A program made the translations under genes and the position numbers. DNA of 32,000 nucleotides from Candidatus Heimdallarchaeota archaeon (lineage in GTDB: Archaea; Asgardarchaeota; Heimdallarchaeia; Heimdallarchaeales; Heimdallarchaeaceae): the NCBI GenBank assembly GCA_030668875.1, contig DAOVER010000025.1:10895-42894 (forward strand). Direction: 5' to 3'. The notes under the pieces are model-generated. The model was not told where the DNA came from and searched no databases. It was given only the letters and a program-made list of their open reading frames with translations. Below, piece by piece: positions 6,883 through 30,541 of this stretch. Each line of letters starts with the position of its first letter. Within the stretch, counting starts at the first letter, position 1.

Positions 6883-6931
6883 TTGTAAGAGCAAATGGTC
6901 ATTCTGAATTATAAACCTATTTTATTTATGA

Positions 6932-6963
6932 ATGTGTTTTTGTCTTTTTGTCTTATTAGCTTG
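6932..6963 (+). repeat. 8-bp-periodic TTGTC motif array, putative left end of the tnpB remnant
   Basis: ATGTGTTT TTGTCTTT TTGTCTTA TTAGCTTG. Positions 6939-6959 match the reverse complement of 27313-27333 at 20/21 nt. Confidence 0.6.
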
Positions 6964-7027
6964 TAAAACTAGTAACATTTTCGAGATAGTACAGGTGTTT
7001 TTATAGTGAACTCTAGGTCAACGAAGG

Positions 7028-7300
7028 ATGGCAAAGGTACTGCGTGCAGAACGTATAGAAGTGACGTATCATCCAGCATTAAGCAGAATCTGTCATCAAG
7101 CAAAAAATCTCTATAATCGAGCAAATTTTCTGATAAAAACTTCTTTGAAACAAACAAACTTCTCTTTTACTACGATCTTGATAGACAATTGAAACAGGAG
7201 GGGTGCTACCGTGTCCTCCCGGCTCATGTTGCTCAACAGACACTCAAACTTCTTTCTAGATGTTGGAAGAGCTATTTTCGAGCTAAACAAGAGTGGAAGA
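7028..7300 (+). pseudogene. tnpB: Frameshifted, 3'-truncated tnpB fragment, same family as 26023-27282
   Basis: MAKVLRAERIEVTYHPALSRICHQAKNLYNRANFLIKTSL, frameshift near 7150, then KLLFYYDLDRQLKQEGCYRVLPAHVAQQTLKLLSRCWKSYFRAKQEWK. Aligns to the first ~90 aa of the intact TnpB; upstream TTTTATA...CTCTAGGT is also shared. Confidence 0.92.
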
Positions 7301-24498: not shown

Positions 24499-24514
24499 AG
24501 AAAATTGAAACTAA

Positions 24515-24547
24515 GAAGAGAGCTTTGCAGCTCGCCTTCTTTTTTTT
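24515..24547 (+). terminator. Hairpin followed by a T-tract
   Basis: GAAG-A-GAGC-tttgca-GCTC-GC-CTTC followed by T8, just downstream of the permease stop. Confidence 0.45.
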
Positions 24548-24592
24548 ATTAAACTAGAAAGAAATAAATAGCAAGGAACGCTGTTGATTAAC

Positions 24593-25525
24593 ATGATTGA
24601 AGCTAAATCCACAAAAATTTCTGAAACGAAAACTGATTTTAAAATTAGTTGGCAGTTTCTTAAAGCAAATTATAAATCATTTCTGGCAACAGAACTCTTT
24701 GCGTTTCTTGCATTTATCTTAGTTATTTCGATAATGATGGGAATAATTGTATTGATTTTTGTTCTTTCTCCAGGATTAGAACCTATAGATCTTGTTTTTG
24801 ACAGGGCAAAAGATTTAGACATAACTTTTAGAGTTTGGCTTATAGTTCCGATTTTGGCCTATTTAACAATGGTTGGTTTCCTATACTGTCAATTTGGTTT
24901 AGCTTATGATATTTTCACTTCCGGAGATATGTTTACAGAATTCAAGAAAGCATTTAATTATTTCAAGGAACATTGGTGGAAATACATTCTCTTAACTTTT
25001 GTAACAGGGTTTAGTTTTTTCATACCAGATCACATAATGCAACGAAGGTTAGAAACGAGTCCTTGGGCAAGTTTAGGTTCTCTTATAATAATCCTTGAAG
25101 TTTTAAGATATCTTGTAATCTTCATTATTTTAGTAGTTTTCAGTAATACTCTACCTAGTGTTACTGCGCAAGGTAATCTGAAAAATAGTTTTAAAGAATC
25201 TTTTAGAATCGTAAAGAAAGAATGGAAACGTTTATTGAAAACATGGGGGATCTATTTTTTGATATTTATTGCTCCCTCGTTAATTATATCTGGAGTTTCA
25301 TATCTAACTTTTCCTGTTTTAGAAGGAACAGTTTGGATTGAAGTAATCAGAGGTATTGCAATCATTTTTCAAGTATATAAATTATTTATAGGATTTCCAA
25401 TGCTGGCATTAATTGCAACTCGAATATACAATAGTGTTGAATTTGAGAGATATAAACCTCTTATAAAATATGAAAATCCATCAAAAGTAGATGCTGAAGA
25501 TAAGATTAGTGTTGGTTCAATTTGA
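24593..25525 (+). CDS. Multi-pass membrane protein of unknown function
   Basis: About six hydrophobic helices with an internal repeat pattern (KAFNYFKEHWWKY / KESFRIVKKEWKR). Confidence 0.75.
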   Translation: MIEAKSTKISETKTDFKISWQFLKANYKSFLATELFAFLAFILVISIMMGIIVLIFVLSPGLEPIDLVFDRAKDLDITFRVWLIVPILAYLTMVGFLYCQFGLAYDIFTSGDMFTEFKKAFNYFKEHWWKYILLTFVTGFSFFIPDHIMQRRLETSPWASLGSLIIILEVLRYLVIFIILVVFSNTLPSVTAQGNLKNSFKESFRIVKKEWKRLLKTWGIYFLIFIAPSLIISGVSYLTFPVLEGTVWIEVIRGIAIIFQVYKLFIGFPMLALIATRIYNSVEFERYKPLIKYENPSKVDAEDKISVGSI

Positions 25526-25538
25526 AGTGGTGAATAAA

Positions 25539-25862
25539 ATGTCACAGAAGGATAAACGAAAAGAAGAAAAACTTCAACCAAGAGAGGAAATTACTCTCAC
25601 AGATCCTTCAGCTGTGGCTATAGTTTTCCACGAGAAAAAAGGACAAATTCTCAAATTATTGATTAAGAAAGAAATGACTATAATTGATCTTAAACATGCT
25701 ACAGGTATGAATCCAGGGACAGTAAAACGTCATCTTGACGACCTTTTACAGCATGATTTAATTCTCATTTCTAAAGAGCAGTTGAGCGAGTATAGTATTA
25801 TGATGAAATTTTATCGCGCAGTTGCAAAGAAATTTTTATTCAAAATTGAATGGACTGCTTGA
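25539..25862 (+). CDS. ArsR-like winged-helix regulator
   Basis: KGQILKLLIKKEMTIIDLKHATGMNPGTVKRHLDDLLQHDLI...KFYRAVAK; GGTGA SD before ATG 25539. Confidence 0.8.
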   Translation: MSQKDKRKEEKLQPREEITLTDPSAVAIVFHEKKGQILKLLIKKEMTIIDLKHATGMNPGTVKRHLDDLLQHDLILISKEQLSEYSIMMKFYRAVAKKFLFKIEWTA

Positions 25863-25920
25863 TGAATATATCACTTAACAGTCTACGATAGACTTAATGT
25901 ACAATACATTTATAATAAAA

Positions 25921-27333
25921 TTTTGTCATATTGTCATATAAACTACCATTATATCAGTTTAAATGGACAGTCTTGAGTAAATATTACGGGAGTTTTTATA
26001 AGAATCTCTAGGTAAAGAAGAGATGACTAAAGTTCCTAGGGTGGAATGTATAGAAGTTAACTATCATCCTGCTTTGAGCAAGATTTGCCATCAAGTAAAA
26101 AATCTCTATAATCGAGCGAATTTTCTGATAAAAACATCCTTGAACAAACAGAACAAACTACTCTTCTACAATGATCTCAACAAGCTACTCAACCATGAAG
26201 AATGTTACCGCGTTCTCCCTGCTCACACTGCCCAACATACGCTCAAGCTTATTTGTAGAAACTGGAAGGGTTACTTCCGAGCAATAAAGGAGTGGAAAGT
26301 CAACCCTGGAGATTTCTTTGCTATGCCCCGTCCTCCTAACTACAAAAAGAAGGATGGAGAAGTGGTAGCTATCTTCACTAACCAACAAGCAAGGATCGTC
26401 AATGGGTGGCTGGTTCTGCCAAAGAAGGTGGGATACACATACAAAACGCGGTTGACTTCTCACACGGATTTAAGAGAGGTGAGAATCATTCCAAGAAGAC
26501 CTGGGTATACACTTGAGTTAGTCTATCAGAAAACCTTACCTAAACTCCGTAAAAAGTTTATACGAAAAGGAGGAGTCGATTTAGGGATGATCAACCTTGC
26601 TACCTTTGTGGATAACCTCGGAGGACGACCGATTGTTATCAAAGATGTAGGGAAAGGAATAAAGTCTATAACCCAATATTATCTGAAAAAACAGAAACAA
26701 TTACAGATACAATACGCTCAACAGCAAAGACAAAAACTACAAGTAAAGAACCGATTGACCTATGGTCATACCTACTACAAACTCCGAGAAAAGTGGAGGA
26801 GGAAACTGAAAGACGCTATCCACAAGCTCACCTGTTATTTGGTTGACTTGTGGGTGGAACGAGGTCTCCATGAGGTCATCATCGGCTACAATGAGAAGTG
26901 GAAACAAGGGGTGCAATTCTGGAAGAAGATCACCCAGATGTTCGTCACCATTCCCTTTCTACGTATCATCAACATCTTGAAGTATAAAGGGGCAGAGAGG
27001 GGGATAAAGGTAGATCTGATTCCCGAAAAATACACTTCCAAGTGTAGTTTCCTTGACAATGAATTCCCAAAAGCTAGGAAAAACTACGCTGGTCGTCGAA
27101 TTACAAGAGGGTTATTTAGCTCCGCTCAAGGACATCCCATTAACGCAGATGTCAATGCTGCATACAACATTTTACTCAAAAGCGATCCGAAAGCCTTGCC
27201 TAAACGCAGGGTGAACGGGGTAGGAGGATACGTGATGTATCCACTCAGAGTGAGTATAGAGTGTCTTCGCTCTATATCATGACCTCTAAGCACAACATGT
27301 ACCTAGCTTTGTCTAATAAGACAAGAAGACAAA
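25921..27333 (+). mobile_element. Non-autonomous tnpB-only element, ends approximate
   Basis: tnpB without tnpA, visibly more G/C-rich than its flanks. TTGTCATA x2 on the left (25923-25938) and GACAA-N3-GACAA on the right (27320-27332). Confidence 0.6.
26023..27282 (+). CDS. tnpB: TnpB RNA-guided endonuclease, rearranged RuvC-II type
   Basis: RuvC-I GVDLG (D186), VIIGYN with Gly at the usual Glu position (G288), PEKYTSKCS (E335), RuvC-III NADVNAAYNI (D376). Zinc ribbon reduced to one Cys. Confidence 0.92.
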   Translation: MTKVPRVECIEVNYHPALSKICHQVKNLYNRANFLIKTSLNKQNKLLFYNDLNKLLNHEECYRVLPAHTAQHTLKLICRNWKGYFRAIKEWKVNPGDFFAMPRPPNYKKKDGEVVAIFTNQQARIVNGWLVLPKKVGYTYKTRLTSHTDLREVRIIPRRPGYTLELVYQKTLPKLRKKFIRKGGVDLGMINLATFVDNLGGRPIVIKDVGKGIKSITQYYLKKQKQLQIQYAQQQRQKLQVKNRLTYGHTYYKLREKWRRKLKDAIHKLTCYLVDLWVERGLHEVIIGYNEKWKQGVQFWKKITQMFVTIPFLRIINILKYKGAERGIKVDLIPEKYTSKCSFLDNEFPKARKNYAGRRITRGLFSSAQGHPINADVNAAYNILLKSDPKALPKRRVNGVGGYVMYPLRVSIECLRSIS

Positions 27334-27335
27334 TA
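27200..27335 (+). ncRNA. Putative omegaRNA/reRNA scaffold of the 26023 TnpB, boundaries approximate
   Basis: Consecutive hairpins across the ORF end and 3' flank: GGATAC/GTATCC (27226-27242), TATAGAG/CTCTATA (27255-27276), TTGTCT-aata-AGACAA (27309-27324). This is the usual location for TnpB guide RNAs. Confidence 0.5.
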
Positions 27336-27410
27336 AGCATCATTAATTGTTGTTATATTTCTTCTTCCATTGCTTCGAAATCTATTTATTAGCAGTTTGT
27401 TATATCCCTA

Positions 27411-27719
27411 ATGATGGAAAAAACACTTAATCTCTCAGATATTTTAGAAATATTGAGGAAAAACATGGTGACAATCCAATCATTTGGTATTAAAAGTATA
27501 GGTATTTTCGGTTCCTATGTAAAGGAACTACAAGAAGGTGCAAGTGATCTTGATGTATTGGTTGAATTTGAAATAGGAAAGAAAAATTTTGACAATTTCA
27601 TGGATTTACTTTTTTTCCTTGAAGATTTGCTTCAGGTTAAAGTTGATCTAGTTACTAAAGAAGCTCTTAGTCCTCACATAGGTCCCAATATTCTAAAAGA
27701 TGTTGTTTATATTGAATAA
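27411..27719 (+). CDS. Minimal nucleotidyltransferase (MNT, MntA-like antitoxin) with no adjacent HEPN gene
   Basis: GIFGSYVK...SDLDVLVEF (GS-x10-DxD), FDNFMDLLFFLEDLLQVKVDLVTKEAL. Confidence 0.88.
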   Translation: MMEKTLNLSDILEILRKNMVTIQSFGIKSIGIFGSYVKELQEGASDLDVLVEFEIGKKNFDNFMDLLFFLEDLLQVKVDLVTKEALSPHIGPNILKDVVYIE

Positions 27720-27797
27720 TGATTTCTGTTTTCTTAACAATCTATGAAGAGTTGGTGAAAATTTTTAAAGAGATTATGATTATTTTGATGTTCGTAA

Positions 27798-28391
27798 CTA
27801 GTCAGTTTTTTGAAATACAAAAATATAATTTTTAAATATAAAGTGCCTTCTCTTCTCTTCATATAGTACTTTAAAATTATTTTTTTCCAAAAATCCCTTA
27901 ATATCTTGAGCTGTGTAGACCCCATAGTTCTTCGCAATAGGTCTGAAGATTTTTACTAGAAACTTAGGGTAAGTCATATCGTGGAAAACATAGAACCCCT
28001 TCGATCTTACAACTCGTTTTATCTCCTTTAGAGCCTCTCCCCAATTACTTATGTGATGCATAACATATGTTGATATAGCCAGATCATATGATTCTTCTTC
28101 ACTGAAACTAAGCTTTGTTGCATCAGCTACCATAAATTGTAGATTTTCTTTTTTCTCTTGATTTTCTTTGGCTAGTTCTATTTGTTCTGTGTCTAAATCT
28201 ATTCCAGTTACGTCCAATCCATATCTATCATTTAGATGGTTAGCTAGAACCCCTACACCACACCCTATCTCTAGTACATCCTTTACTCCAGTAAAATCTA
28301 TTTGTTGAGAAAGTTCTTCATACAAATCTATATTTCTTTGACCATGCTTTTTGCTGTTAACAAACTTCTTTTCCATTTTGGACATTTTCAT
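27798..28391 (-). CDS. Class I SAM-dependent methyltransferase
   Basis: VLEIGCGVG, TGIDLD, ADATKL, YVMHHI...EIKRVVRSKG. Confidence 0.88.
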   Translation of the reverse strand: MKMSKMEKKFVNSKKHGQRNIDLYEELSQQIDFTGVKDVLEIGCGVGVLANHLNDRYGLDVTGIDLDTEQIELAKENQEKKENLQFMVADATKLSFSEEESYDLAISTYVMHHISNWGEALKEIKRVVRSKGFYVFHDMTYPKFLVKIFRPIAKNYGVYTAQDIKGFLEKNNFKVLYEEKRRHFIFKNYIFVFQKTD

Positions 28392-28477
28392 TTTGAACCA
28401 GAATAATAGTTATATTAAAAATATAAAAAACTATGGAATCAAAAAGTCAATGTGTAAAAGAGATAAAAGATGAATGA

Positions 28478-30541
28478 TTATACTCTTTTTTTCTTTTTGG
28501 TGTGTTTGGACATAATCAATGCTAATCCTGTAAGACAAATGATTAATCCTCCACTAAATAGAGGAAAATCTGAAGATGTCGCTTCATCTTGTGTTCTTAC
28601 TATTACACCATCTGATTTTATCCCTTCATTTCCACTTGTATCAACAGCAGAGATCTCATAAGTATACAATGTATCCCCATTTAGTTCACTATCAGAATAT
28701 GAGGCGTTAATAGTCTGAGTAATATATGTCCCATCTCTGTAGATATTATAGTGGTCAAAATCAATTTCAGTACTTGGATTCCACGCAAGATTGATTCGAG
28801 AAGAGCTTATCCCTTCACCGCTCACTCCTATGACCTTAGCTGGAGCAGTGAAATCTGTTTTACTTTGTAAAGCATAAACATCAAGGAAGAAATCTACACA
28901 ATAATGATCTGATCCTGTATCAGCAGTTGATGTATCTCCAACTGTTGAGTTAACAAGATAATTTGAAAGGTAGTCGTTTGCTATAATGAAATCGATTCTT
29001 GAATCAAACGTAGGGTTTTGATGCCCATATGTATATCCTAGTTCACTAGGGTTTAACATTCTAAATACATCTGTGAAAATATGAGCTTGCGAGGCATATT
29101 GTCCATAAGTTGTATCTCCTGGTTTCAACATCATGGTTAATGGACCATAACCAAGATCACCTTCTGGTGCTAAAGCTCCTGTGTCGTAGGGAGAAAATGA
29201 ATTTAAGTCCCCCATATAGAGGATTGGTACTTCTCCCAAACTATCCATATAGTTTATTATTCCTTCTTGTTCTCTTTCACGTCTATATTCATTATCTGCT
29301 CCACTCATAGCTTTTAGATGTGCACCGATTAGATACAATTCTGTTCCATTAACATCGACCTTCCAATACATGAAATCATGAGACACATCGAACATTGAAT
29401 CATCATCCAGTGTAACAAGTGGTATTTGAACGGTTTCTAATATTGGATATCTGCTCATTATCGCCTCTCCATCTGTACTATATACAATTCCTTGAGCTGT
29501 ATATCCTGTATATGGTTCTTCATCTACGAAATAGGCATTAAATTCAGCTATATACTGATCTAACAGTTCATTCGAATTATCGTCCCAGTCTCCAGTTTCA
29601 ACGAAGATAACAATATCTGGGTTCTCCTCTTTTACCACGTCTTTCCAATCTGGGTCAATTCCATATTCTATGTTGTAGGACATGATTTTGATTAGATCTG
29701 AAGATGAAATAGTTTCATTATTTTCGACTGTTACAGTAATATTGTGTTCTCCAACATTATTTGCTGGATCTTTGCACTTTGCTAAAATTGTGTGAGAACC
29801 ATTGCTTACAGTTCTAGTATTCCACAAAAAGGGGTTTTGTGTAGCTCTTAGAATTCCATCAATATATATTTCATATCTAGCAATCCCATTTTCATCAGTA
29901 GCATTGATTGAGATTTCTACTGATCCTGTGAGATTTGCTCCTGAAACAGGAGACAAGATATTTACCAAGGGAGGTGTATCATCGGAAAGTATTTCATCAT
30001 AAGGTCCATCTCCTGGATCACCTAAAGAGCCACTATTTTCCCAATCCACTCCTGTATCTGTGTCAACCACATTTATCCTTCTAATTGTTGTATCTATTGC
30101 AGAGACAGACCATCCAGATACATAGTTCTCCCAAGCAACAAAATCAACTTCAGTACTCACATTATTATACAGTACTAATTTGTCTCCTGAATTACTTAGA
30201 GCGAGAGGTGATCCATCTAAATCTGGATCAAATCCATATAATAAATTAAATGCTGCTGATTGCTTTGCAACAACAAAGTAACCCTTTGCAGGAATAGTAC
30301 CTGAAAGACTAAAGGAATCATAATTATCTTCAACTGTCCAACCAGATAGATCTACTGCGGACTCAGTTGGATTAAATAATTCAAACCATTCTTCTGTTGT
30401 ATCAGAATTGGGAGCATCATAAAGAACTTCGGTAATAATGATATTATCTCCAGAGGGTGATGAATTAGTAGTAAATATAACAAAGTTACTCAGTATAAAT
30501 ATAATCAGAAGTAGCAGTTTCTTTGATCTCAGAAAACTCAT
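28478..30541 (-). CDS. Cell-surface protein: lamin-tail domain, Ig-like, endonuclease/exonuclease/phosphatase (EEP), FN3 and C-terminal anchor
   Basis: Signal peptide; IIITEVLYD...EWFELFNP...DLSGWTVED (LTD); TPPLVNILSP...WNTRTVSNGSHTI (Ig); MSYNI, VETG, GAHLKA, GDLNS, RIDFI, SDH (EEP); LAWNPS...YNIYRDG...YEISAVD (FN3); hydrophobic helix followed by KHTKKKKRV. Confidence 0.85.
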   Translation of the reverse strand: MSFLRSKKLLLLIIFILSNFVIFTTNSSPSGDNIIITEVLYDAPNSDTTEEWFELFNPTESAVDLSGWTVEDNYDSFSLSGTIPAKGYFVVAKQSAAFNLLYGFDPDLDGSPLALSNSGDKLVLYNNVSTEVDFVAWENYVSGWSVSAIDTTIRRINVVDTDTGVDWENSGSLGDPGDGPYDEILSDDTPPLVNILSPVSGANLTGSVEISINATDENGIARYEIYIDGILRATQNPFLWNTRTVSNGSHTILAKCKDPANNVGEHNITVTVENNETISSSDLIKIMSYNIEYGIDPDWKDVVKEENPDIVIFVETGDWDDNSNELLDQYIAEFNAYFVDEEPYTGYTAQGIVYSTDGEAIMSRYPILETVQIPLVTLDDDSMFDVSHDFMYWKVDVNGTELYLIGAHLKAMSGADNEYRREREQEGIINYMDSLGEVPILYMGDLNSFSPYDTGALAPEGDLGYGPLTMMLKPGDTTYGQYASQAHIFTDVFRMLNPSELGYTYGHQNPTFDSRIDFIIANDYLSNYLVNSTVGDTSTADTGSDHYCVDFFLDVYALQSKTDFTAPAKVIGVSGEGISSSRINLAWNPSTEIDFDHYNIYRDGTYITQTINASYSDSELNGDTLYTYEISAVDTSGNEGIKSDGVIVRTQDEATSSDFPLFSGGLIICLTGLALIMSKHTKKKKRV

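What the first reader, a model, noticed from the sequence alone, without database searches (positions are those of the whole stretch)
25921..27333. TnpB family flanked by inverted arrays of an 8-bp-periodic TTGTC motif rather than classic IS200/IS605 ends
Seen: left of the intact gene is TTGTCATA TTGTCATA (25923-25938). Left of the remnant is ATGTGTTT TTGTCTTT TTGTCTTA (6932-6955). Right of the intact gene is the same motif inverted (27313-27333), 20/21 identical to the remnant's left end. Known: IS200/IS605 ends are subterminal hairpins, whereas IS607-family ends carry short direct repeats bound by a serine transposase. Inference: a non-autonomous Asgard TnpB element mobilised in trans by an IS607-like or unknown recombinase that reads these repeats. 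I could not see the GG crossover dinucleotide typical of IS607, so the mechanism may differ. A host transcription-factor site is the alternative.
Basis: partly seen in the sequence, partly recalled or inferred. Interest (0 to 1): 0.7.

Follow-up and report, generated by a model that had tools for sequence, protein, structure and literature searches.

The report
TnpB-only transposon with inverted TTGTC ends
This is one copy of a large family of small jumping elements in Heimdall (Asgard) archaea that carry only an RNA-guided nuclease gene; the TTGTC repeats are its true inverted ends, most likely docking sites for a transposase that is encoded elsewhere and was not found.

Summary
TTGTC-N3-TTGTC occurs 3 times in the window (0.14 expected). 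It occurs 42 times in the genome (about 7 expected), and 38 of those lie at ends of this tnpB family.

The repeats are the core of imperfect terminal inverted repeats about 32 bp long. They bound a 1,430-bp element (window 25914-27343) made of a promoter, tnpB and a guide-RNA scaffold. The left end and the inverted right end co-vary within elements.

Three clean empty sites show insertion after T-T-A-T with no duplication. The AT stands at both junctions but only once in the empty site. The right end stops in TCAT, and right flanks prefer R-A.

No Y1 transposase was found in 24 genomes of the genus. The left end has no hairpin. The right end does have a covarying hairpin.

The nearest outside relatives of this TnpB (41-44% identity) sit directly behind IS607-type serine transposases.

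No transposase gene with matching ends was found in the genomes, metagenome contigs or viral contigs searched.

Best reading: a non-autonomous element of IS607 lineage, exchanged at AT instead of GG and moved in trans. A cut-and-paste enzyme that duplicates AT is not excluded.

The scan found this family before on other DNA of this genome (e1-5454080) and reached a similar verdict.

The parts
25910..25913 (+). TTAT: target tetranucleotide on the left flank and predicted TAM of the TnpB. Its AT (25912-25913) is the dinucleotide shared with the right junction.
   Evidence: T at -1 in 39/45 and at -2 in 37/45 left flanks. Empty sites keep ..(T/A)TAT joined directly to the right flank.
25914..25945 (+). 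Left terminal inverted repeat, about 32 bp, with two TTGTC units 8 bp apart (25923-25935) followed by a TAA/TTA-type box.
   Evidence: Conserved in about 60 copies, with homology ending at TTAT. Aligns with the inverted right end. Co-varies with it within elements.
25993..26001 (+). Archaeal TATA-like box (TTTTTATAA) preceded by a conserved CGGGAG; likely tnpB promoter, about 22-30 nt before the ATG.
   Evidence: Conserved block in the alignment of 63 left ends. Its function is inferred from the known anatomy of archaeal promoters.
26023..27282 (+). tnpB, 419 aa, intact. RuvC residues D186, E335 (relocated glutamate) and D376. Glycine at the canonical glutamate position (G288). No zinc finger.
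   Evidence: NF040570 guided_TnpB 131 bits against a cut-off of 100. Pfam OrfB_IS605 and Cas12f1-like_TNB. Residue conservation in 67 clade representatives. dN/dS 0.065-0.10 among copies.
27175..27343 (+). Predicted guide-RNA (omega/reRNA) scaffold spanning the 3' end of tnpB and the right end. The guide would start at 27344.
   Evidence: Fold z-score -3.0 with four hairpins. Compensatory changes in stems can be seen among copies. No Rfam family matches. No RNA data.
27307..27325 (+). Right-end hairpin (stem TTTGTCT / AGACAAG, loop AATA). Its 3' arm is the inner inverted TTGTC unit.
   Evidence: Present in all 50 distinct right ends folded. 81% of cells paired against 37-53% when slid, and 3 pairs show changes on both sides.
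27312..27343 (-). Right terminal inverted repeat: two inverted TTGTC units (27320-27332), an A-rich spacer, and the invariant CATCAT end.
   Evidence: Sharp loss of homology after CATCAT in 25 own-genome copies. C-A-T-C-A-T nearly invariant in 59 right ends.
6930..7299 (+). Truncated second copy: left end (TTAT at 6926-6929, arrays at 6940-6952), promoter, and about 92 codons with a frameshift, then unrelated sequence.
   Evidence: tblastn finds two pieces, q1-44 and q44-92, 69-77% identical. Sequence read. Left end aligned.

Best explanation
The locus is a 1,430-bp non-autonomous mobile element of IS607 lineage. It carries only a promoter, tnpB and the gene for its guide-RNA scaffold.

Each tip carries the same module of about 32 bp in inverted orientation: AT, then R-A-T-G-like bases, then two TTGTC units 8 bp apart, then a TTA box. 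I read the TTGTC units as binding sites for the DNA-binding domain of a transposase supplied in trans. The most likely enzyme is a serine recombinase of the IS607 TnpA kind. It would exchange strands at the AT dinucleotide of a T-(T/C)-A-T-(G/A)-A site, which is present at the left junction, the right junction and the target. Insertion and excision would then be seamless.

At the right end, the inner TTGTC unit also serves as the 3' arm of the last hairpin of the guide RNA. The scaffold ends in ..CAUCAU, and the flanking DNA supplies the guide. After excision the donor joint would read TTAT plus the guide-matching flank. TnpB could cut that joint, with TTAT as the TAM. TCAT at the integrated right end would protect the element from cutting itself.

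Shown: the ends, the inverted repeat and its co-variation, the empty sites, the target preference, the lineage, and selection on tnpB.

Inferred: protein binding to TTGTC, the class of enzyme, the RNA, and the TAM.
For: 1. The ends are sharply defined and shared by more than 40 copies in this genome and by 20 of 23 congeners.
2. The motif is nearly exclusive to these ends: 38 of 42 genomic occurrences. In the 20-contig relative G001, 9 of its 13 exact arrays sit at tnpB or remnant ends and one more is an orphan left end, although the array is barely enriched there (13 against 9 for the reversed-pattern control).
3. Within an element, the left end and the inverted right end are more alike (16.2 of 22 positions) than across elements (14.6), permutation p < 1e-4. 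Unit variants TGTCAAT, TTGTCAT and TTGTCTT match at both ends.
4. Three clean empty sites read ...(T/A)TAT joined directly to the right flank, so AT occurs once when empty and at both junctions when filled, with no other duplication. The pairs are L064 against G000 C74, L062 against G000 C58, and L061 against L068. A fourth pair is too diverged to read at the junction.
5. The target is asymmetric: T-T before AT (p about 1e-13 and 1e-11), and R-A after the element (p 3e-4 and 1e-5). This mirrors the element's own first bases, R-A.
6. Of 8 outside relatives examined (41-44% identity), 3 lie directly behind a serine-recombinase gene with an N-terminal HTH (L090, L127-129, L134). One lies behind an HTH stub, 4 are solo, and none is next to a Y1 gene. 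A Y1-linked TnpB of a related genome is only 21% identical.
7. Published IS607 anatomy fits: no duplication, short direct subterminal motifs, an imperfect inverted repeat between the ends, and a dinucleotide shared by ends and target (PMC6188088). In the C. botulinum IStron the TAM is TGGG and the right end stops in TCGG (PMC10690162). This parallels TTAT and TCAT here.
8. The resident IS607 of this genome also has two direct repeats near its right end and inverted copies near its left end (by eye).
Against: - No serine recombinase gene with TTGTC arrays was found. The 35 serine-recombinase loci examined (5 in this genome, 30 across the genus; 33 distinct) show none, apart from one chance neighbour. 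The resident IS607 has different ends.
- The units are 8 bp apart, not phased with the helix at about 10 bp as in IS1535 and in the resident IS607.
- The repeats lie at the same distance from both tips. That is a symmetric inverted repeat of the kind seen in cut-and-paste transposons, whereas IS607 repeats lie at unequal distances.
- AT is a palindrome, so it cannot by itself set the orientation of a serine-recombinase exchange.
- A 44%-identical solo relative (L126) sits in a 23-bp inverted-repeat element with a 9-bp duplication. This clade can therefore be captured by DDE transposons.
- The closest assembled copies in this genome differ by dS of about 0.5, so there is no sign of recent movement.
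Confidence: 0.5

Rival explanations
1. The element is a passenger cassette of a cut-and-paste (DDE) transposon family. The 32-bp inverted repeats bind a DDE transposase encoded elsewhere, and the AT at both junctions is a 2-bp target-site duplication of a T-T-A-T-R-A target, as TA is for IS630/Tc1-mariner.
For: - The inverted repeats are symmetric and equidistant from the tips.
- AT occurs once in the empty site and twice in the filled site, which is formally a 2-bp duplication.
- TnpB branches linked to DDE transposases, with symmetric ends, are published (PMC10691335).
- Fanzor-only SPu-1 has 33-bp inverted repeats and TA duplications (PMC3627910).
- A 44%-identical solo relative lies in an inverted-repeat element with a 9-bp duplication.
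Against: - No DDE_3 (IS630-type) gene in this genome.
- The four DDE_Tnp_1 loci lack the arrays at their ends.
- No other cargo lies between such ends in this genome or in G001.
- Target preference is asymmetric: T-T is almost fixed on the left, while A-A and G-A are equally common on the right. A symmetric staggered cut would not predict this.
- The nearest relatives that have a transposase carry a serine one.
Confidence: 0.2
2. The element is moved by an enzyme that is not a recognisable IS transposase with matching ends. Candidates are one of the two small serine recombinases conserved as single genes across the genus, or a still unknown protein. It would then be a new end type rather than an IS607 derivative.
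For: - No transposase gene with these ends was found in 24 genomes, 11 metagenome loci or viral contigs.
- Two resolvase-type genes are present in nearly every genome of the genus (own copies at G000 C18:25768-26484 and C29:40648-41397).
- The 8-bp spacing and symmetric ends fit no described IS607.
Against: - Nothing links those genes to the elements. Their surroundings lack the arrays.
- They also occur in G013 and G014, where this TnpB family was not found.
- The genomes are 72-92% complete, and plasmids and viruses are often left out of such bins, so a conventional partner may simply be unassembled.
Confidence: 0.15
3. The left-end copy of the repeat is kept for pairing with the right end or with the guide RNA, not for protein binding. 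The first 30 nt of the left end are complementary to the last 30 nt of the RNA scaffold. The left-right co-variation would then reflect base pairing in single-stranded DNA or RNA.
For: - Co-variation extends to spacer positions between the two ends although the element encodes no end-binding protein.
- The right end is an RNA gene under structural constraint.
Against: - The promoter lies downstream of the left repeat, so the tnpB transcript does not contain it.
- No known TnpB mechanism uses such pairing.
- Descent of each subfamily from a different autonomous ancestor explains the co-variation more simply.
Confidence: 0.07
4. It is an ordinary IS200/IS605 (IS1341-type) derivative. A Y1 HUH transposase would move it as single-stranded DNA, cutting 3' of TTAT on the left and of TCAT on the right.
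For: - Insertion is 3' of a fixed tetranucleotide without duplication, and the right end stops in a related tetranucleotide.
- The right end has a subterminal hairpin.
- Database names for family members often say IS200/IS605.
Against: - No Y1_Tnp match in this genome or in 23 congeners, although the search rings in the control genomes.
- No conserved hairpin at the left end.
- The ends are inverted repeats, which that family lacks.
- The right-flank R-A preference is unexplained by this mechanism.
- A Y1-linked TnpB nearby in the order is only 21% identical.
Confidence: 0.05
5. The TTGTC arrays are binding sites of a host transcription factor or a common promoter element.
For: The left array lies about 60 bp upstream of a TATA-like box.
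Against: - 38 of 42 genomic occurrences are at element ends, and the other 4 fit chance.
- The same array lies inverted downstream of the gene, exactly at the right boundary.
- Homology between copies ends about 10 bp outside the arrays.
Confidence: 0.02

Closest known systems
IS607 family (IS607, IS1535, ISC1926; C. botulinum IS607 IStron with TnpB and omega RNA)
   Same: - No target duplication.
- Short direct repeats just inside both ends, with an imperfect inverted repeat between the ends.
- A dinucleotide shared by the left junction, the right junction and the empty target.
- A right end or RNA scaffold that stops in a near-copy of the TAM (TCGG against TGGG there, TCAT against TTAT here).
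- A TnpB lineage whose nearest members sit behind serine TnpA genes.
   Different: - No tnpA in the element, and none with matching ends found anywhere searched.
- The shared dinucleotide is AT, not GG.
- The repeats are 8 bp apart rather than about 10 bp.
- They lie at equal distance from both tips, which gives a true symmetric inverted repeat of about 32 bp.
IS1341-type TnpB-only elements (filed under IS200/IS605 in ISfinder)
   Same: A single tnpB gene, multiple copies, no transposase of its own, no target duplication.
   Different: Those elements are described as lacking inverted repeats (PMC3627910) and are referred to Y1 transposases. Here the ends are inverted repeats and no Y1 enzyme exists in the genus as sampled.
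TnpB carried in DDE transposons (DDE-1 to DDE-6 branches, for example IS630-linked; Altae-Tran et al. 2023) and Fanzor-only elements such as SPu-1
   Same: Symmetric inverted ends around an RNA-guided nuclease gene; solo copies moved in trans; a possible 2-bp duplication. The clade shares the relocated RuvC-II glutamate with a glycine at the old position, as published for RIIr-type branches and Fanzors.
   Different: No DDE partner was found. The junction dinucleotide is AT, not TA. The target is asymmetric. The nearest relatives that have a transposase carry a serine recombinase.
Crossover site of gamma-delta/Tn3 resolvase (site I, central TTATAA cut at AT; half-sites containing TGTC). Recalled from memory, not tested.
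   Same: A serine recombinase that exchanges at a palindromic AT inside TTATAA and reads TGTC-containing half-sites. This shows that an AT core is workable for this enzyme class.
   Different: The TGTC units here point the other way relative to the crossover, and they are tandem rather than one per half-site. No homology of any protein was tested. This is a lead only.

Membership tests
TnpB (RNA-guided endonuclease, NF040570) | Match to the family model above its curated cut-off | tested here: met
   131.2 bits against a cut-off of 100. Pfam OrfB_IS605 and Cas12f1-like_TNB.
TnpB (RNA-guided endonuclease, NF040570) | RuvC catalytic triad | tested here: met
   D186 and D376 are invariant. The canonical Glu position is an invariant Gly (G288), and a relocated Glu (E335) is present in 66 of 67 clade members. 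This is the rearranged type described in PMC10691335 and PMC10711439. Activity was not tested.
TnpB (RNA-guided endonuclease, NF040570) | Guide-RNA scaffold overlapping the 3' end of the gene and ending at the right boundary | tested here: inconclusive
   Structured region with z = -3.0 and a covarying terminal hairpin. No Rfam match and no RNA reads.
IS607 | Serine transposase (N-terminal MerR-like HTH plus resolvase core) in the element or sharing its ends | tested here: not met
   The element has only tnpB. IS607-type tnpA genes exist in the genome but have other ends. None of the 35 serine-recombinase loci examined (5 in this genome, 30 across the genus; 33 distinct) has the arrays.
IS607 | No target-site duplication; one dinucleotide shared by both junctions and the empty target | tested here: met
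   Three clean empty sites. The dinucleotide is AT instead of the usual GG. The same data also fit a 2-bp duplication.
IS607 | Short direct subterminal repeats at both ends, with an imperfect inverted repeat between the ends | tested here: met
   Two TTGTC units at each end, inverted. The spacing is 8 bp, not helically phased.
IS607 | TnpB belongs to a serine-recombinase-linked lineage | tested here: met
   Of 8 outside relatives, 3 have an adjacent serine tnpA, 1 has an HTH stub, and none has Y1. This is a small sample and no tree was built.
IS200/IS605 | Y1 HUH transposase available | tested here: not met
   No PF01797 match in this genome (92% complete) or in 23 congeners. The controls ring.
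IS200/IS605 | Similar subterminal hairpins at both ends on the same strand; ends not inverted repeats | tested here: not met
   There is a hairpin at the right end only. The ends are inverted repeats.
IS200/IS605 | Insertion 3' of a fixed tetra- or pentanucleotide without duplication | tested here: met
   TTAT precedes the left end, and the empty sites agree.
DDE transposons carrying TnpB (for example IS630-linked) | Terminal inverted repeats | tested here: met
   Imperfect inverted repeat of about 32 bp.
DDE transposons carrying TnpB (for example IS630-linked) | Target-site duplication of fixed length | tested here: inconclusive
   AT at both junctions could be a 2-bp duplication or a crossover core.
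DDE transposons carrying TnpB (for example IS630-linked) | A DDE transposase with the same ends | tested here: not met
   No DDE_3 in this genome. The DDE_Tnp_1 loci lack the arrays at their ends. Other DDE families were not searched.

The most novel reading that the evidence does not exclude
Heimdall archaea may harbour a distinct kind of inverted-repeat transposon. It would exchange at AT within T-T-A-T-R-A, read 8-bp-spaced TTGTC units, and carry a Fanzor-like TnpB (relocated glutamate, no zinc finger). Its transposase would be neither Y1, nor IS607 TnpA, nor a known DDE enzyme. It could, for example, be a host-resident recombinase. That would make it a prokaryotic counterpart, in the closest archaeal relatives of eukaryotes, of the inverted-repeat carriers of eukaryotic Fanzors.
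Probability: 0.12. Interest if true: 0.75.

Novelty: new variant of a known kind. Interest (0 to 1): 0.45.

Why it matters
TnpB-only elements are very common, and how they move without a transposase of their own is mostly assumed rather than shown. This family gives an unusually clean case. It has dozens of copies, sharply defined symmetric ends, empty sites, a predicted TAM (TTAT) and a self-protecting right end (TCAT).

The ends combine features of IS607 (subterminal direct repeats, seamless exchange at a shared dinucleotide) with features of cut-and-paste transposons (symmetric inverted repeats).

The family suggests that the IS607-type exchange may not be tied to GG. It also offers compact archaeal TnpB-guide RNA pairs with a relocated catalytic glutamate for testing. 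Finding its transposase would show which enzyme can be borrowed by such elements in Asgard archaea.

Tried and rejected
- Population reads: four marine-sediment runs (contigs only) laid on window 24500-28800 gave no joint across the element. Contigs stop at 25970 and restart at 27314, so no empty allele was seen. No RNA holder was listed.
- Flank gene look-up: this found only two short contigs that break at the element.
- Whole-locus search in the genus: the left and right flanks of the window copy lie on different contigs in relatives, so there is no empty site for this copy.
- Viral contigs: a left-end pattern found four copies of one unrelated phage sequence with no tnpB.
- Metagenome contigs: 4 family members, all TnpB-only with the same ends, and no autonomous form.
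- Rfam: no family for the right end or for RAGATH-18-like RNAs.
- Solved structures by sequence: only a weak hit to a designed nuclease.
- Cas1 (Asgard Cas1-linked TnpB transposons are published): no Cas1 match in this genome.
- DDE_3: none.
- A relaxed end pattern was too noisy to reveal miniature derivatives, and no pair of ends closer than 1 kb was seen.
- Upstream regions of the two conserved small serine recombinases show no arrays.
- RNAalifold on 56 right ends of 230 nt gave a poor consensus because of divergence. The hairpin was therefore tested on a shorter alignment. In one search the window row was mis-set by 5 nt, which does not touch the helix columns.
Full report
**Observation.** The three arrays exist at the stated places: TTGTC-N3-TTGTC at 25923-25935 (+), 6940-6952 (+) and 27320-27332 (-). 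The window has 3 exact matches against 0.14 expected from shuffles. The inverted right end and the two left ends align over about 32 bp.

The window is part of a 3.23-Mb, 99-contig, 34% G+C genome. Public relatives are labelled Candidatus Heimdallarchaeota.

**The thing itself.** The ORF at 26023-27282 is a TnpB (NF040570, 131 bits). tblastn finds more than 40 full or partial copies in this genome, many at contig edges. The family occurs in 20 of 23 congeners, with up to 25 matches per genome among the congeners and 34 in this genome.

Aligning the flanks of all copies shows that homology starts at T-T-A-T-(G/A)-A and ends at C-A-T-C-A-T.

- Left end: about ten bases, then two TTGTC units 8 bp apart, a TTA box, a conserved BRE/TATA-like block and the ATG, about 110 bp in all.
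- Right end: a hairpin whose 3' arm is an inverted TTGTC unit, a second inverted unit, an A-rich spacer and CATCAT.
- The window copy runs from 25914 to 27343 (1,430 bp).
- The second copy (6930-7299) is a truncated left part with a frameshift.

**Is the motif specific?** Of 42 exact genomic matches (about 7 expected), 33 lie beside tnpB. Five more are orphan or contig-edge ends with the same ATGA..TTTGTC signature. Four look like chance. In the best-assembled relative (G001, 20 contigs), 9 of the 13 exact arrays sit at tnpB or remnant ends and one more is an orphan left end; the other three look like chance or a degenerate remnant. The exact array is barely enriched there, 13 against 9 for the reversed-pattern control. 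This removes the host-factor or promoter alternative.

**True inverted repeats.** Within an element the left end and the inverted right end share the same unit variant (TGTCAAT, TTGTCAT or TTGTCTT). Within-element identity (16.2 of 22) exceeds between-element identity (14.6), and 0 of 10,000 permutations reach it.

The right-end hairpin is separate evidence of structure:
- it is present in all 50 distinct right ends;
- on a 21-sequence alignment it is 81% paired against 37-53% when slid;
- three pairs changed on both sides.

The last 169 nt fold with z = -3.0, as expected for a guide-RNA scaffold. No Rfam family matches.

**Boundaries from empty sites.** I joined the flanks of 27 elements and searched this genome and all fetched loci. 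This gave four spanning matches.

Three are clean: L064 against G000 C74, L062 against G000 C58, and L061 against L068. In each, the empty site reads ...(T/A)TAT followed directly by the right flank. The insertion therefore adds everything from just after TTAT through CATCAT. AT stands at both junctions but once in the empty site, and there is no other duplication. The fourth pair is too diverged at the junction.

Flank statistics:

| Position | Count | p |
|---|---|---|
| T at -1 | 39/45 | 1e-13 |
| T at -2 | 37/45 | 2e-11 |
| Purine at +1 | 43/59 | 3e-4 |
| A at +2 | 36/59 | 1e-5 |

The target is thus T-T-A-T-R-A. The element's own first bases after AT are also R-A, and its last bases before AT are T-C. 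Some of these sites may be orthologous between genomes, so the p-values are somewhat generous.

**Which transposase?**

*Y1.* PF01797 has no match in this genome (92% complete) or in 23 congeners, while the controls ring. The left end has no conserved hairpin.

*Serine.* The genome has IS607-type tnpA genes (C48, C15, C87), but their element ends differ. By eye, that element's right end has two direct repeats 10 bp apart, with inverted copies farther from the left tip. This is the published IS607 layout.

Two other small resolvase-type genes are conserved across the genus. None of the 35 serine-recombinase loci examined (5 in this genome, 30 across the genus; 33 distinct) carries TGTC-N4-TGTC arrays, apart from one chance neighbour.

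*Others.* The genome has no Cas1 and no DDE_3. Four DDE_Tnp_1 loci lack the arrays at their ends. Metagenome and viral searches found no autonomous form.

**Lineage.** A search of 1.84 billion representatives gave 590 relatives at E <= 1e-30. In 67 of them the canonical RuvC-II glutamate is an invariant glycine, a relocated glutamate is kept, and the zinc finger is lost. This is the rearrangement published for RIIr-type branches and for Fanzors (PMC10691335, PMC10711439).

| Outside relatives (41-44% identity) | Upstream neighbour |
|---|---|
| L090 (Methanohalobium), L127-129, L134 | Serine recombinase gene with N-terminal HTH, abutting or overlapping tnpB |
| L130 | HTH stub |
| L126, L131, L132, L133 | None (solo) |

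None of the eight has a Y1 neighbour. A Y1-linked TnpB in a related genome is 21% identical.

One solo relative (L126) lies in a 23-bp inverted-repeat element with a 9-bp duplication that splits a histidine-kinase gene. The clade can therefore also ride DDE transposons.

**Comparison with the literature.**
- IS607 elements lack target duplications. They carry short direct subterminal motifs and an imperfect inverted repeat, and they share GG between ends and target. IS1535 TnpA binds 9-bp motifs phased with the helix, two of them at the right end (PMC6188088).
- In the C. botulinum IStron the serine TnpA and TnpB both specify TGGG, and the scaffold ends in TCGG (PMC10690162). TTAT and TCAT here are the exact analogue.
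- TnpB-only elements were described as lacking inverted repeats (PMC3627910).
- TnpBs with symmetric ends are known from DDE-linked branches (PMC10691335).

**Verdict.** The element is a non-autonomous TnpB/guide-RNA transposon of IS607 lineage. Its TTGTC arrays form genuine inverted ends, and it exchanges at AT rather than GG.

The enzyme is inferred, not found. I put a serine recombinase in trans at about 0.5 and a DDE enzyme duplicating AT at about 0.2. An unrecognised enzyme gets 0.15, a left-right pairing role for the left repeat 0.07, IS200/IS605 0.05 and a host-factor site 0.02.

Copies are old (dS of about 0.5 or more between any two assembled copies) yet under strong purifying selection (dN/dS 0.065-0.10). 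Insertions differ between species of the genus.

The same family was examined earlier in this scan on another piece of this genome (e1-5454080), with a similar conclusion. New here are the empty sites, the AT core, the target logo, the left-right co-variation test and the survey of relatives' neighbours.

Noticed in passing
window 27230-27343 compared with G000 C83, C31 and C46 copies: The window copy looks chimeric. Its left end and protein (92% identity) go with the TTGTCAT subfamily (C83, C31). From about the last five codons onward, its 3' scaffold and right end are of the TTGTCTT subfamily (C46). This suggests exchange of the guide-RNA/right-end module between subfamilies.
   Followed up: partly
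L126:2880-4580 (JGI metagenome contig, relative P0122): A solo TnpB 44% identical to this one lies between 23-bp inverted repeats (91% complementary). It is flanked by a 9-bp direct repeat CTCGCTCCC and splits a MASE3 histidine-kinase gene. This is DDE-type capture of the same clade.
   Followed up: partly
G000 C48:36130-38830 and C15:30720-31490 (own genome, outside the window): The resident IS607 (serine tnpA plus a large tnpB-like gene; the C15 copy lacks tnpB) has two direct repeats of CAAGTTT 10 bp apart near its right end. Inverted copies lie about 20 bp from its left tip. This is a local example of the classic IS607 end layout.
   Followed up: partly
G000 C56:19243-19300: One right end carries three tandem TTGTCTTC units instead of two, so the 8-bp unit can expand. 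A second element end lies about 60 bp away, facing it.
   Followed up: no
G000 C18:25768-26484 and C29:40648-41397: Two small serine recombinases with the catalytic domain first (238 and 249 aa) are conserved, roughly one each, in nearly every genome of the genus. That is unusual for mobile-element genes. Their role is unknown.
   Followed up: partly
clade of P0001 (67 representatives): The whole clade lacks the C4 zinc finger. CxxC is replaced by C-S-F-L-D, and the second pair of cysteines is absent. Gly sits at the canonical RuvC-II position.
   Followed up: partly
G000 C18:27330-27430: The CATCAT end of one copy abuts G of the next gene's apparent start, so the element's last AT supplies part of an ATG. 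Several other right flanks also begin with G-A.
   Followed up: no
G021:C42 (L050), downstream of the match to window 24900-25835: In a congener, the region homologous to the window's left flank is followed within about 600 bp by a tnpB of another subfamily (66% identity). This may be an independent insertion near the same place.
   Followed up: no
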